This document shows positions 14,067 through 35,052 of a stretch of DNA of 38,539 nucleotides, one piece after another. The first letter of the stretch is position 1; every line of letters begins with the position of its first letter. The stretch spans positions 1 to 38,539 of IMG/VR virus record IMGVR_UViG_3300017747_002751; one strand, given 5' to 3'. Origin of the DNA: a virus (Duplodnaviria > Caudoviricetes). The notes under the pieces are model-generated. The model had not been told where the DNA came from and searched no databases. It saw only the letters and a list, made by a program, of their open reading frames with translations. The position numbers were made by a program, and so were the translations under genes.

Positions 14067-14270
14067 TTATCTGTCTGCTTTGAAATAGCCGTCGTCATGG
14101 ACTTCAGTGATAAGAACGGATTTCCACTTGTCATTCTCGCATTCCTGAACGCGAACCCATCCGCCAATGGTGACTTTATCTTTGCCGTGAACGCGGACCA
14201 CGGCCGGAATGGTTCCGAGTTTGCATGGCTTGCCGTATTTTTCGAGCCATGTCTTATTTCCTCTTGGCAT
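14067..14270 (-). CDS. Hypothetical protein
   Basis: 67 aa, SD AAGGG. Confidence 0.65.
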   Translation of the reverse strand: MPRGNKTWLEKYGKPCKLGTIPAVVRVHGKDKVTIGGWVRVQECENDKWKSVLITEVHDDGYFKADR

Positions 14271-14484
14271 ATTTCACACCCTTTCTTTTGAAGTTCATTT
14301 TCTTTCGTTCGAACGTCCTGTGGGCTACACTCTCATTATCCATATGAAGCCAGATGTAGAGCTTTGTTGCTCGCTCACGCTCCTCTCTCAGCCAGCCATC
14401 TGGCGAAATTTTTTCTAGCCGCTCGACTAGCTCAATTTGACTATGGCTCATCCTGTTTTTCTGTGACTGTAGGTAAGTTATCAT
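14254..14484 (-). CDS. Hypothetical basic protein (first ORF after the long leader)
   Basis: 76 aa; start uncertain (14484 or the internal MSHSQ). Confidence 0.55.
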   Translation of the reverse strand: MITYLQSQKNRMSHSQIELVERLEKISPDGWLREERERATKLYIWLHMDNESVAHRTFERKKMNFKRKGVKYAKRK

Positions 14485-14924
14485 GTGCTTTAACCTATCT
14501 GCTCAATGGTGAGATCGTTGTGACTTCCGATACCAAGAACCACCGCATCCAAAAGGAAACGGCTCTCCCTGGATCGGAAGGGGTAATCTGCTCAATGGAG
14601 CCGACCGCCGCTTATTCCGAAACATGCCAGACAAATGATGCCGCACATCTTGGTCACTTTTTCAGGATCATTCCCTGACGTATTAGGGCCGACCACCAGC
14701 TTTCGCCGCCAGAACCCTTTGAGCCGTATACGCAACCCATTCTTGCTCATGCCATTAACGCACACGACGAACCGGTCCGCGAAAGATCGCGTGCGCTCGT
14801 CAGGTCTAAATTTCGGTGGGGTTGAAAAAGCGATGGGAGAGTGCTAATTCTCTTCTCGCAGGTTTCCGCTTTCCAAACGAATTTAGCCTGCCGCGCCCCG
14901 GTCCTCTTGCAAAGGATGCGGGGT
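14485..14924 (-). ncRNA. Putative long structured non-coding leader / origin RNA
   Basis: No minus-strand ORF of 60 aa or more. Stems 14759-14767/14787-14795 (complete only on the minus strand through a G-U pair), 14674-14680/14798-14804 and 14524-14535/14570-14580; driven by the promoter at 14931-14959. Confidence 0.45.
14822..14850 (+). promoter_or_regulatory. Promoter for the counter-transcribed small RNA
   Basis: TTGAAA-N17-TAATTC with an extended -10 TG. Confidence 0.55.
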
Positions 14925-14928
14925 TTTT
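14857..14928 (+). ncRNA. Putative ~72 nt antisense (ctRNA-like) RNA
   Basis: Promoter, hairpin GCAGGUU/AGCCUGC, terminator hairpin and U-tract; fully complementary to the 5' end of the leftward transcript. Confidence 0.55.
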
Positions 14929-14935
14929 CGTTTTT
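14896..14935 (+). terminator. Rho-independent terminator
   Basis: CCCCGGUCCU-loop-AGGAUGCGGGG followed by TTTTTCGTTTTT. Confidence 0.75.
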
Positions 14936-14959
14936 ACGCCCTTATTCTCTACAGCGCAA
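14931..14959 (-). promoter_or_regulatory. Leftward early promoter
   Basis: TTGCGC-N17-TAAAAA on the minus strand. Confidence 0.55.
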
Positions 14960-14991: not shown

Positions 14992-15023
14992 GTTCTTGCT
15001 AGGAACCAAGCTTCATGCATAAT
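14992..15023 (+). promoter_or_regulatory. Rightward early promoter (leaderless cro-like mRNA) with a GTTC-N7-GAAC operator
   Basis: TTGCTA-N16-CATAAT with ATG at 15030; palindrome at 14992-15006 has a similar copy at 14015-14029. Confidence 0.55.
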
Positions 15024-15029
15024 GAGGCC

Positions 15030-15248
15030 ATGAAAACAAACCCACTCCAGGAACGAATTGACACCATGCGCATCACGGACGCCGAACTGGCGTTCCGGGT
15101 TGGCTGCACGCGGTCTACAATCACAAGAATTCGCCTTGGCATTTCCCGGCCTTCGTTGGCCCTTGCCAAGCGGTTAGGCGAACACACTGGATTGGCTGTT
15201 GAGCGCTTCGATGAGATCGAACGCCGCCCTTCCAAGCCAAAGGATTAA
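15030..15248 (+). CDS. Cro/XRE-family helix-turn-helix regulator
   Basis: ITDAELAFRVGCTRSTITRIRLGISRPSLALAKRL matches the HTH_3 pattern; first gene of the rightward operon. Confidence 0.88.
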   Translation: MKTNPLQERIDTMRITDAELAFRVGCTRSTITRIRLGISRPSLALAKRLGEHTGLAVERFDEIERRPSKPKD

Positions 15249-18139: not shown

Positions 18140-18393
18140 ACGGGATACCGGAAGACATCATGAAGATGGCATATGATGCCATCAAAGGCTCACTGCCATT
18201 CTTCCCAAGCGATCAAGACAGATTGCGGGATAGTGTCGCAGATATTCTTCTAGCCGAGCGTCTGCGCTGCCTTAACATCTGCGCAGCCGAGCGTGAATAT
18301 GGCGACTTTCATCCAGACGACGTAATGACGCGCATTGAAACAGGTAGCGAACCACGGCAGATTGAAGGCTGGAATTGCGAGTTCTCCGAATGA
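18136..18393 (+). CDS. Hypothetical protein
   Basis: MNGIPEDIM...ILLAERLRC; SD AAGGGG. Confidence 0.75.
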   Translation: MNGIPEDIMKMAYDAIKGSLPFFPSDQDRLRDSVADILLAERLRCLNICAAEREYGDFHPDDVMTRIETGSEPRQIEGWNCEFSE

Positions 18394-18764
18394 CAAAGCC
18401 GCAAAAGACACTCCCAGGCTTTGAGCGCTTCTGGTCCGCATACGCCTATAAGATCTGCCGAGCAGATGCTTACAAGGCGTGGGTAAAGAACAAGTGTGAG
18501 GACATCGCAGACGAGATCTGCGCGGCCATCCCGGCTTATGATGAGTTTCTGTCGCAGAACCCATGGCGGCACAAGGCTCACGCCTCGACATGGCTTAACG
18601 GAAACCGATGGCTGGATGAATATGGCCCTCCAAAGCCCGCCTATACGCCGCATCCCAACCAGCGATCCGGCCCCGTCACATACACCACACCAGCCATTAA
18701 CCACCAATCCCGCGAAGAATACCTAAGGGCAGAGATAGCCCGTTCAGAGCGCACATTCAGATAG
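18390..18764 (+). CDS. Stand-alone C-terminal domain of a phage replication initiator / replisome organiser
   Basis: FERFWSAY..K..+ADAYKAW...HASTWLNGNRWLDE motif; no N-terminal HTH domain present. Confidence 0.7.
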   Translation: MTKPQKTLPGFERFWSAYAYKICRADAYKAWVKNKCEDIADEICAAIPAYDEFLSQNPWRHKAHASTWLNGNRWLDEYGPPKPAYTPHPNQRSGPVTYTTPAINHQSREEYLRAEIARSERTFR

Positions 18765-19390: not shown

Positions 19391-20026
19391 ATGTTTGTAT
19401 CCCACAGAGAATTCACCACGGCGGCAGAGATTCATGCTAACCATGTCCTTCTGCGCAACAAGTTCTTTCCTCCCATGCCAAAGGCTCAATCCAAGGCAGA
19501 CCCCCGCCGTATAGACCCAGAGAAGCGCGGCAAGCGTCCGCTTTGGTCACTGCTCAAGATGCACTTCGACGCTCATGTGAAGCTGCGCAAGGCCGTCCTA
19601 GAGCGTGAAGCCCCGGCCGCGCCTGTGGAGCCGAAAGAAAAGCCTCTCTGGACGACGAACACAATCAGTTTCAATAGCCATGTGGTCGAATACCGCCGCT
19701 ATCTTCTCGTTTGCGAGGAAGGCGACACGCCGGTCTTTCTGCCGAAGAAGCCAATGGATGAGATTGTCGGGGAGGTTTTACGGTTCTTTCCACAATACGG
19801 CCTAGCATCGATCAAGGGGCGCTGTCGGAACAAGGGCGTAATTCTCCCGCGCCATCTGGCCGTCTACGAGGTGCACAGACAGCGTCCTGACCAGTCGTAC
19901 CCGCAGCTTGCCAAGTATTTCTGCCGCAATGACCACTCGGGCTTGATCTACGCCGTCAATAAGATCCACGCGATGAAAGAGGCGGGCGATCTTTCATGGT
20001 TTTATGGGGGTGGAAAGCGCGACTAA
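19391..20026 (+). CDS. DnaA C-terminal (domain IV) HTH protein
   Basis: R.KGVILPRHLAVYE...SYPQLAKYF.RNDHSGLIYAVNKI resembles the DnaA signature; no AAA+ domain. Confidence 0.8.
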   Translation: MFVSHREFTTAAEIHANHVLLRNKFFPPMPKAQSKADPRRIDPEKRGKRPLWSLLKMHFDAHVKLRKAVLEREAPAAPVEPKEKPLWTTNTISFNSHVVEYRRYLLVCEEGDTPVFLPKKPMDEIVGEVLRFFPQYGLASIKGRCRNKGVILPRHLAVYEVHRQRPDQSYPQLAKYFCRNDHSGLIYAVNKIHAMKEAGDLSWFYGGGKRD

Positions 20027-20030
20027 CCGC

Positions 20031-20059
20031 TTGCCGCATGATGGCGGACGCTGTATTAT
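20031..20059 (+). promoter_or_regulatory. Promoter for ncRNA-1
   Basis: TTGCCG-N17-TATTAT. Confidence 0.65.
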
Positions 20060-20065
20060 TAGGCA

Positions 20066-20158
20066 TCGAGAAGTGGGCTAAGTCTAGAGCGTCAAAGCAT
20101 CACCATTAGCCTAGAGTTTGGTGGTGGCCTGAGCCGGTAAGTTATCCGGGCTTCCCGA
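20066..20158 (+). ncRNA. Putative tRNA-like / pseudoknotted RNA (ncRNA-1)
   Basis: Closing stem UCGAGAAG/CUUCCCGA, D-like arm GCU...AGC, 8-bp stem CAUCACCA/UGGUGGUG and T-like arm CCGG-UAAGUUAU-CCGG; begins at the predicted transcription start. Confidence 0.5.
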
Positions 20159-20166
20159 CTAACCGC

Positions 20167-20194
20167 TTGCTTTCACACCAATACCACATATCAT
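20167..20194 (+). promoter_or_regulatory. Promoter for ncRNA-2
   Basis: TTGCTT-N16-TATCAT. Confidence 0.55.
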
Positions 20195-20204
20195 AAGCTT
20201 TAGA

Positions 20205-20333
20205 TGAAGGGCCAACACCTTTCAGGGGAGGGTTAGACCATACCGCTCCGAGTTCTTCTCACACAAGGCGTCTCTCATGGCTAAGAACCACTGTTGGTTG
20301 GCCCCCAAACCGATCAGGGGTTGGCATACTTCA
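20205..20333 (+). ncRNA. Putative multi-arm structured RNA (ncRNA-2)
   Basis: Closing stems UGAAG/CUUCA and GCCAACACCU/AGGGGUUGGC enclose arms GGAG/CUCC, GUUCUU/AAGAAC and UUGGUU/AACCGA; no ORF in the track. Confidence 0.5.
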
Positions 20334-20398
20334 GCAGAAAGAACGCAAGGTCTCCTTTCCACGGCATATTACAGCAGGATGAGCGCAAGTTAAACTAA

Positions 20399-20456
20399 TC
20401 TAACATTGTCTAACATAATCGTTGACTGCCCTCCATTCTCGTCGTAGTGTTAGACA
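20399..20456 (+). promoter_or_regulatory. Promoter of the methyltransferase operon with flanking TCTAAC boxes
   Basis: TTGACT-N17-TAGTGT (20422-20450); TCTAAC at 20399 and 20409; inverted TGTTAGACA at 20448-20456. Confidence 0.65.
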
Positions 20457-20483
20457 TCGAAACACACACAACGGGGAACGGTT

Positions 20484-34083: not shown

Positions 34084-35052
34084 ATGGCACCATGGCAAGA
34101 CTTCCTTCGCAACAATTCTCAGGCCATGACGCAGACGGGACTTGGTCTCTTGAGCGGAAAGACTGGCCCAGAGCAAGCCGCTATGGGCGCTCAAGGCCTC
34201 ATGCAGGCACAGCAACAGAACAAGACGCTGAAGTTTCTTGAACAGCAGAACCCGGAATTGGCGCAGGCCGTCAAGGCTGGTGGCATCTCTGCACAAGACG
34301 CTGTCGGCATGATGTGGAAGCAGAAGCTTGAGGCTCAAAAGCCGAAGACCTATGATTTCCAAGTTCTGCCTGATGGCACATACGGCACCTTTGACCAAGA
34401 GGCAGGCCAGTTCAGTCCGCTCGGCCAAGCTCCACGCGAGACGAAGCAGGACGATTACACCATTCGCCAGCAGCAAGCGCAGCAGCTTGGCATGGGGCCG
34501 GATGATCCGCGCTATCAGAATTTTGTCTTAACCGGCAAGATGCCGCGTGAGGATACACAGGCTTTGACGGCGACAGACAAGAAGGCGCTCTGGTCGGCAG
34601 AAGACGAAATTCCAATGCTGGATAACACGCTGGCATCGCTCAAGCAGGCTAGAGACCTCAACCGGAAAACATATTCTGGGACGGGCGCAGGCCTTCTTGG
34701 GACCATCGGGACGAATGTTCCTGGCGCTGGTATGGTGCTTGACCGTGAGAAGGCCGTGGCAACGTCGGAGTTTAACAAACTGATGTCCATGGAGGCCATC
34801 CAGTCGATGGCGCAAAGCCTCAAGGGAGCTACCACGGACGCCGAACTGGCGCGGTTCGTTGATATCCTTGCGGACCCATCAACAGACCCAGATATCCGGG
34901 AGCGCACGATTGACCGCATGGTTTCGCTTGCGGAGCGGGTCAAAGAGGTGAAGGCATCCCGCATCAACGAATTGCGCGGCCTTTCCACGCCTGCCGGTTC
35001 GATGAAGGGTAACCGCACGACTAGCGGCGTCAACTGGAGCGTGGAGCCTTAA
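34084..35052 (+). CDS. Ejection / DNA-transfer protein 2 (gp20-like position)
   Basis: 322 aa, Gln/Ala-rich and helical; LKGATTDAEL motif. Confidence 0.7.
   Translation: MAPWQDFLRNNSQAMTQTGLGLLSGKTGPEQAAMGAQGLMQAQQQNKTLKFLEQQNPELAQAVKAGGISAQDAVGMMWKQKLEAQKPKTYDFQVLPDGTYGTFDQEAGQFSPLGQAPRETKQDDYTIRQQQAQQLGMGPDDPRYQNFVLTGKMPREDTQALTATDKKALWSAEDEIPMLDNTLASLKQARDLNRKTYSGTGAGLLGTIGTNVPGAGMVLDREKAVATSEFNKLMSMEAIQSMAQSLKGATTDAELARFVDILADPSTDPDIRERTIDRMVSLAERVKEVKASRINELRGLSTPAGSMKGNRTTSGVNWSVEP

What the first reader, a model, noticed from the sequence alone, without database searches (positions are those of the whole stretch)
14485..14959. Long structured non-coding transcript with a counter-transcribed RNA where a repressor gene would sit: candidate RNA-controlled origin or switch
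Seen: a leftward promoter (14959-14931), then ~440 nt without an ORF but with nested stems (one complete only on the minus strand through G-U). An opposing promoter (14822-14850) would make a ~72-nt two-hairpin terminated RNA complementary to the 5' end of that transcript. Known: this geometry defines ColE1 RNA II / RNA I and the ctRNA of repABC plasmids. Also seen: no recognisable CI, integrase, primase, helicase or full-length initiator in the complete genome. Inference: replication initiation or the early-gene decision is controlled by an RNA pair, for example an R-loop primer or an attenuator, in place of a protein repressor.
Basis: partly seen in the sequence, partly recalled or inferred. 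Interest (0 to 1): 0.78.

Follow-up and report, generated by a model that had tools for sequence, protein, structure and literature searches.

The report
RNA-based replication origin in rhizobial phages
This gene-free stretch is a conserved, folded ~425-base RNA gene with a small antisense partner; it sits where related phages keep their origin-binding protein and its DNA repeats, so it is likely an RNA-based start site for copying the phage genome.

Summary
Window 14924→14500 (minus strand) belongs to a family of 17 distinct sequences from rhizobial phages and prophages, with no Rfam match. The family shows strong covariation and at least one pseudoknot. The opposing promoter (14822-14850) is the best antisense site in 16 of 17 members and predicts a ~70-nt two-hairpin RNA, the layout of MRB/ColE1 RNA I and RNA II.

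The RNA does not replace cI: temperate members keep a repressor. It occupies the slot behind oL, where other relatives carry a stand-alone initiator winged helix plus repeats. None of 16 RNA-slot phages has an initiator N-terminal domain, while all 6 classifiable RNA-less ones do.

An internal copy of the RNA's 3' end differs from it one way only (95 G/A, 0 A/G). That fits pairing with the template strand of the 3' end, which would seed an R-loop.

Best reading (0.68): an antisense-controlled RNA origin for lytic replication. Transcription and origin activity are untested. It is not a sequence member of ColE1. Interest 0.8.

The parts
14931..14959 (-). Promoter of the long RNA (TTGCGC-17-TAAAAA). 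In temperate homologues it lies back-to-back with pL, with operator-like repeats at its -35.
14500..14924 (-). Long structured RNA (RNA II-like, ~425 nt); start predicted, no intrinsic terminator seen at the 3' end
14895..14924 (-). P1 hairpin; on the plus strand it is the terminator of the antisense RNA
14858..14891 (-). P2 stem with variable loop; complement of the first hairpin of the antisense RNA
   Evidence: (3 of 6 pairs change on both sides)
14822..14850 (+). Antisense promoter TTGAAA-17-TAATTC, conserved in position across the family
   Evidence: 16 of 17
14857..14930 (+). Predicted antisense RNA (RNA I-like), two hairpins and a U tail
14757..14797 (-). P3 hairpin with a conserved ~18-nt loop; the loop can pair with 14742-14737
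14720..14749 (-). Covarying helix 14749-14745 with 14724-14720, crossing helix 14732-14728/14684-14680 (pseudoknot)
14651..14695 (-). Pseudoknot helix 14695-14690 with 14656-14651; 6 of 6 pairs covary, paired in all 17
14589..14621 (-). Upstream, G-rich copy of the internal repeat (candidate guide); its 4 variable bases sit in a hairpin loop
14500..14531 (-). Terminal, A-rich copy of the repeat (candidate DNA target / R-loop site), followed by more AT-rich DNA
14332..14349 (-). pL-like site sharing CTTCAT..ATAAT with the pR-like site at 15011-15023 (inverted repeat)
15030..15248 (+). Cro-like HTH gene
18390..18764 (+). C-terminal half only of an O-like replication initiator (phrog_270 positions 171-299)

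Best explanation
The region is a conserved, covarying structured RNA gene with a conserved antisense promoter, and it is likely the phage's RNA-based origin for lytic DNA replication. Proposed mechanism (inferred): host RNA polymerase makes the ~425-nt RNA from a promoter behind oL. The RNA folds so that its upstream repeat copy pairs with the DNA template strand of its own 3' end as that strand leaves the polymerase, which seeds a persistent R-loop. The R-loop opens the DNA and either primes synthesis or lets the stand-alone initiator C-terminal half (or, in 70-kb relatives, a phage primase and DnaB) load a helicase. The ~70-nt antisense RNA would bind the nascent 5' hairpins and block firing. 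In temperate members the repressor at oL would silence the origin in the prophage. Shown here: conservation, covariation, both promoter motifs, the repeat asymmetry and the gene-content pattern. Not shown: transcription, the R-loop, origin activity and repressor control.
For: (1) Slot exclusivity. No initiator N-terminal domain (PF13730, phrog_270, phrog_678, PF07120) in 16 of 16 RNA-slot phages, and one in 6 of 6 classifiable RNA-less phages. Five of the six carry it as a stand-alone winged helix in the same slot, followed by direct repeats. That winged helix matches the N-half of intact initiators whose C-half is the family of 18390. The closest relative (G001, 96% portal identity) has winged helix plus repeats here instead of the RNA. 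(2) RNA I/RNA II layout in 16 of 17, matching the ~68-nt two-stem RNA I and ≥465-nt RNA II of MRB origins (PMC3035462). (3) Repeat copies over 425 cells: 319 identical, 95 G upstream/A downstream, 0 A/G, 0 C/T, 0 T/C, 11 other. The upstream copy is the best partner of the terminal copy's complement in 17 of 17, with 0 of 100 shuffles as good, while the terminal copy has no better-than-shuffled partner inside the RNA. (4) 55 pairs: 98.4% paired, 23 change on both sides against 9.9±1.7 shuffled and at most 6 when slid. (5) No ParA or reverse transcriptase in 20 of 20 genomes, and a tyrosine integrase in 6 of 9 temperate family-A carriers, which argues against plasmid-prophage maintenance or a retroelement.
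Against: No transcript data. The phages are related, so the 16 versus 6 split is not 22 independent events, and exclusivity within one slot is partly trivial; the informative part is genome-wide absence of the domain. G001 has both a slot winged helix and a full-length DUF1376 protein. Types B-D share no detectable core sequence with this family and were not tested for covariation. The G/A pattern fits an antisense RNA partner as well as DNA, and cells are not independent events. Cognate guide-target pairs were best or within 0.5 kcal/mol in only 8 of 17 rows. C-half-only initiators also occur in non-rhizobial phages with neither these RNAs nor the winged helix (L381, L387, L392). The structure was derived from the alignment it was counted on. 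Weak PF13730 hits below cut-off in G431, G439 and G009 fall in other genes (a small HTH, a DnaA_C protein).
Confidence: 0.68

Rival explanations
1. A trans-acting early RNA (anti-defence decoy, or an ornate GOLLD/ROOL-like RNA) carried as cargo in the slot that holds rexAB in lambda, with the antisense RNA tuning its level.
For: Size and pseudoknots; patchy distribution (2 of 401 Rhizobiaceae genomes had any hit, 1 of them a full copy); no protein of the window is shared by all 9 carriers examined.
Against: Does not explain the absence of an initiator N-domain from all 16 RNA-slot phages, the swap with winged helix plus repeats, the one-way G/A repeat or the missing terminator.
Confidence: 0.12
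2. A lysis-lysogeny switch: the transcript runs antisense into cI, or its guide pairs with cI read-through RNA, lowering repressor.
For: In temperate members the 3' end faces the 3' end of the repressor operon, within about 30 nt in L125 and L092. A read-through RNA would satisfy the G/A rule equally well.
Against: The window has no cI and keeps the whole structure. The neighbouring repressors are of at least three unrelated types. A wobble copy is pointless if a perfect complement lies in the same RNA.
Confidence: 0.09
3. An antisense-gated attenuator or put-like antiterminator for the leftward early operon.
For: In the window the RNA points into the left operon; antisense RNAs of this size gate attenuators in pT181-type plasmids (recalled).
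Against: In the temperate homologues examined the RNA points away from the left operon, towards a convergent gene. The window has a separate pL-like site at 14349-14332. No conserved terminator follows the RNA.
Confidence: 0.07
4. A decayed coding region or chance folding.
For: Folding z of the window copy alone is modest (-2.4, or -1.95 with other bounds).
Against: Compensatory changes, non-triplet indels across members, and no family match for any overlapping ORF.
Confidence: 0.02

Closest known systems
MRB (marine RNA-based) plasmid origins, pB1067 (PMC3035462; parts 2-4 of 6 of the text read)
   Same: ~490-bp ORF-free element; ~68-nt two-stem-loop RNA I with its own consensus promoter and a terminator flanked by A and T runs; ≥465-nt opposite RNA II covering RNA I.
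   Different: Vibrionaceae plasmids. Here the element is in phages, behind oL, beside half an initiator. No full-length match in 72,556 plasmids; the pB1067 record itself was not in the collection.
ColE1 RNA II / RNA I (PMC5043065 and PMC11012335, passages read)
   Same: Long structured RNA plus a small antisense RNA over its 5' end. An upstream segment pairing with the template strand near the origin parallels the G-stretch/C-stretch model (recalled; Masukata and Tomizawa 1990 seen only as a reference entry).
   Different: No sequence similarity (no Rfam hit). Two stems rather than three, ~425 rather than ~550 nt, a ~30-nt mixed-sequence repeat. Pol I and RNase H dependence untested.
RNA-based origins of cluster A mycobacteriophage prophages (PMC7157519, passages read)
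   Same: A phage slot that holds either a RepA protein or a non-coding RNA.
   Different: Those sit beside parABS, maintain a plasmid prophage and are dispensable for lytic growth. Here there is no ParA, most carriers integrate, and a cI-less, integrase-less phage keeps the RNA.
Lambda-type O initiator with iterons (recalled; PMC5043065 passages)
   Same: Transcription-dependent origin under repressor control; the O-like C-terminal domain is kept.
   Different: The N-terminal domain and iterons are absent, or moved as a separate gene to the slot behind oL in relatives.
GOLLD and ROOL ornate phage RNAs (PMC12286853, search listing only)
   Same: Large pseudoknotted RNA in prophages.
   Different: No Rfam match; no antisense partner or initiator swap known for them (recalled).

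Membership tests
ColE1-type origin | Sequence or Rfam similarity to RNA I / RNA II | tested here: not met
ColE1-type origin | Antisense RNA with three stem-loops (~110 nt) | tested here: not met
   two hairpins, 63-86 nt
ColE1-type origin | RNase H / Pol I-dependent priming | not testable with these tools
   needs mutant hosts
MRB origin | ~70-nt two-stem antisense RNA with its own promoter, inside an ORF-free ~490-bp element | tested here: met
   (motif level only)
MRB origin | Sequence homology to the 110-bp pB1067 core | tested here: inconclusive
   no plasmid hit; pB1067 record not held
RNA-based origin (functional class) | No origin-binding Rep/initiator domain in the replicon | tested here: met
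   16 of 16 RNA-slot phages, four profile families; other folds not excluded
RNA-based origin (functional class) | Both RNAs transcribed; fragment replicates autonomously | not testable with these tools
   no RNA holder listed
repABC ctRNA | Lies between repB and repC and controls repC | tested here: not met
   no repABC genes or ParA; no Rfam hit
Mycobacteriophage RNA prophage origin | Adjacent parABS, no integrase | tested here: not met
tRNA, tmRNA, RNase P, introns, GOLLD, ROOL and other Rfam families | Covariance-model or ARAGORN match | tested here: not met
Retron / DGR / DRT RNA | Reverse transcriptase in the element | tested here: not met
   PF00078 in 0 of 20 genomes
Helicase-loader fold (for the 18390 family) | Structural match to a known loader | tested here: inconclusive
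   best Z 4.8; SPP1 G39P Z 3.9, rmsd 2.9, 58 aligned

The most novel reading that the evidence does not exclude
The RNA is a guide-bearing 'RNA initiator'. It has replaced the DNA-binding half of the O protein, finds its own origin by base pairing through a variable loop, and binds the freed C-terminal half as a ribonucleoprotein to load the helicase. At least four unrelated RNA folds (A-D) have been recruited to this job in rhizobial phages.
Probability: 0.3. Interest if true: 0.93.

Novelty: new variant of a known kind. Interest (0 to 1): 0.8.

Why it matters
RNA-based origins are known from ColE1 and MRB plasmids and from plasmid prophages of mycobacteriophages. My ten searches found none described for lytic replication of a lambda-like phage. 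Here nature supplies matched pairs, such as cultured Rhizobium phages RHph_N2 (RNA type B) and RHph_Y25 (winged helix plus repeats), in which a protein-iteron origin and an RNA swap in one slot. That makes it directly testable how an RNA can stand in for an origin-binding domain. The covarying guide and target give a genetic handle on R-loop nucleation. The element could also yield small replicons for rhizobia, and the antisense RNA might give phage-specific superinfection exclusion.

Tried and rejected
Homologue searches that found nothing: cultured phages and plasmids with family A; related-loci searches with Cro and 15777. The six hits of the first pattern scan were chance. Of 257 sequences then held, 39 were true members; one of these has the window's own sequence and was dropped.

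No RNA holder was listed, which is no evidence on expression. GC and purine skew turning points (17713, 15167) follow gene direction and say nothing about the origin. No cI remnant was found by tblastn. The fold and PDB searches for the initiator C-half were uninformative.

G004 could not be classified (an IS in the region, no cI found) and is left out of the 16-versus-6 count; partial records G010, G011, G014 and G017 were not classified. My notes said the antisense promoter was not conserved; one search overturned that. Resemblances to tmRNA, RNase P and 23S rRNA motifs were recalled by eye; only the Rfam and ARAGORN scans tested them, with no match. No covariance model was built. Supplements were not read.

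Full report
Setting. The window is a complete 38.5-kb P22-like phage record with direct terminal repeats. It has a lambdoid layout: a leftward recombination operon, a Cro-like gene at 15030, and a rightward operon. Its relatives are prophages of Rhizobium, Pseudochrobactrum and Brucella-genus (former Ochrobactrum, recalled) strains, so a rhizobial host is inferred. No cI, tyrosine integrase, ParA, primase, helicase or reverse transcriptase was found. Gene 18390-18764 matches only the C-terminal half of O-like initiators.

The family. A portal search led to a provirus with a 65-71% identical copy of 14500-14947. Pattern scans of viral, genome and metagenome collections followed by nhmmer gave 39 member sequences among 257 held, or 17 at under 97% identity, with pairwise identity 49-94%. 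There is no Rfam or ARAGORN match and no hit in cultured phages or plasmids.

Strand and structure. The promoter-side strand has the better folding z-score in 15 of 17 and shows many G-C/G-U changes. For 55 named pairs, 98.4% of 935 cells pair and 23 pairs change on both sides, against 9.9±1.7 in shuffles (0 of 500) and at most 6 when slid. The structure was derived from this alignment and the sequences are related, so this is not a p-value. One helix (14695-14690 with 14656-14651) covaries at 6 of 6 pairs and crosses two others, which makes it a pseudoknot. Further hairpins that the aligner misplaces pair in every sequence.

The antisense RNA. Even so, a TTG..-16-18-TATAAT-like site 5-10 nt before the complement of P2 is the best or tied site out of about 1,150 candidates in 16 of 17 members, and ranks second in the other. 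It predicts a 63-86-nt RNA of two hairpins ending in a U tail, with loops that differ between phages. This is the anatomy reported for MRB plasmid origins (PMC3035462).

Context. In temperate members the order is: left operon, pL with operator-like repeats, the RNA promoter back-to-back with pL, the RNA, then the convergent 3' end of the repressor operon. The RNA therefore coexists with cI and leads no gene. In the window the cassette is inverted and cI is gone. The shared CTTCAT..ATAAT inverted repeat at pL and pR may have mediated the inversion (inference).

What else occupies the slot. In 20 records fetched plus three annotated cultured Rhizobium phages, the slot holds one of three things. 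The first is this RNA (9 records plus the window). The second is another gene-free conserved element: type B in G003, G016 and RHph_N2; type C in G005, G006 and G009; type D in G015. The third is a stand-alone winged helix followed by direct repeats and AT-rich DNA, in G001, G007, G013, RHph_Y25 and RHph_N3_2. G012 has a full-length initiator after cro and only a ~70-bp slot; G004 could not be classified. The slot winged helix matches the N-half of initiators whose C-half is the 18390 family, and many of the 80 other phage loci have the two halves fused. Four profile families find an N-half in none of the 16 RNA-slot genomes and in all 4 RNA-less G records; the two cultured phages were scored with a local profile. 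Small RNA carriers keep a C-half of 110-140 aa. The three 70-kb carriers scanned have a DnaG-like primase and DnaB instead, and G009 has DnaB. G001, 96% identical to the window in the portal, has the winged-helix cassette, but it also has a full-length DUF1376 protein and its far end looks chimeric. The Fisher p of 7e-5 ignores relatedness.

The internal repeat. The RNA ends in a ~30-nt unit that is repeated 84-91 nt upstream. Over 25 aligned positions in 17 sequences, 319 cells are identical, 95 are G upstream and A downstream, none is the reverse, none is C/T or T/C, and 11 are other. The four loop bases change together between lineages (CAUU/CAUU, CGAA/CAAA, CGUA/CAUA, GGUC/AAUC, GGUU/AAUU). 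A shared third strand or a protein would allow A/G as well as G/A. Pairing of the upstream copy with the complement of the terminal copy allows only G/A. That duplex is the best one available in 17 of 17 (0 of 100 shuffles each), and the terminal copy has no good partner within the RNA. With no reverse transcriptase present, the complement is either template DNA or an antisense transcript. Template DNA parallels ColE1 hybrid formation (persistent hybrid: PMC5043065; G/C-stretch detail recalled). The upstream G's are also held by an internal helix, which contributes to the bias. Downstream DNA is 59% AT against 43% in the RNA body, and has no run of five T in 17 of 17. Type C shows a similar upstream/terminal repeat in 2 of 4 sequences by the automated scan.

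Mechanism and comparison. Taken together, the evidence favours an antisense-controlled, R-loop-forming origin for lytic replication (0.68). It works like MRB and ColE1 origins, but it is not a ColE1 member by sequence and MRB homology could not be tested directly. The phage precedent is the RepA-or-RNA swap in mycobacteriophage plasmid prophages, whose RNA is dispensable for lytic growth (PMC7157519). Here ParA is absent in 20 of 20 genomes and 6 of 9 temperate family-A carriers have a tyrosine integrase. Ten literature searches found no description of this RNA or of the split initiator; subscription journals and supplements were not covered. An earlier scan note (e1-10027020) reports a similar element in another genome. 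I did not test it and it is not independent support.

Noticed in passing
L310:11240-11740; L291:19020-19520; L319:9000-9500: Type-B slot element (~480 nt) with a similar 5' hairpin and a strong antisense promoter; present in cultured Rhizobium phages RHph_N2, Y1_10, RHEph18 and I3_18. No Rfam hit at gathering score.
   Followed up: partly
L299:10980-11250; L302:10330-10620; L294:13250-13520; L321:8990-9270: Type-C slot element (~270 nt); a terminal GGTTCA/CCTTCA motif changes together with an upstream copy.
   Followed up: partly
L308:9665-10210; L320:8890-9450: Type-D slot element, shared with phage BiPBO1.
   Followed up: partly
L318:16217-16555; L297:18445-18825; L306:2836-3180; L402:5319-5624; L403:5198-5611: Split initiator: stand-alone winged helix plus repeats behind oL, with the C-half several kb away in the right operon (G001 has a full-length DUF1376 protein there instead).
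   Followed up: yes
window 14254-14484 (-): ORF directly after the RNA; one low-depth contig has a 13-nt deletion in it, so it may be non-functional.
   Followed up: no
window 19391-20026 (+): DnaA C-terminal HTH protein, found in phages with either slot type.
   Followed up: no
window 20024-20460: Gene-poor stretch with several sigma70-like promoters and a repeated CTAACCGCTTGC motif.
   Followed up: no
window 15074-15092 and 34833-34851: 19-nt exact repeat between cro and a virion gene, probably chance.
   Followed up: no
L381, L387, L392, L325, L363: Non-rhizobial phages with C-half-only initiators and none of the RNA types A-D; their origin element is unidentified.
   Followed up: partly
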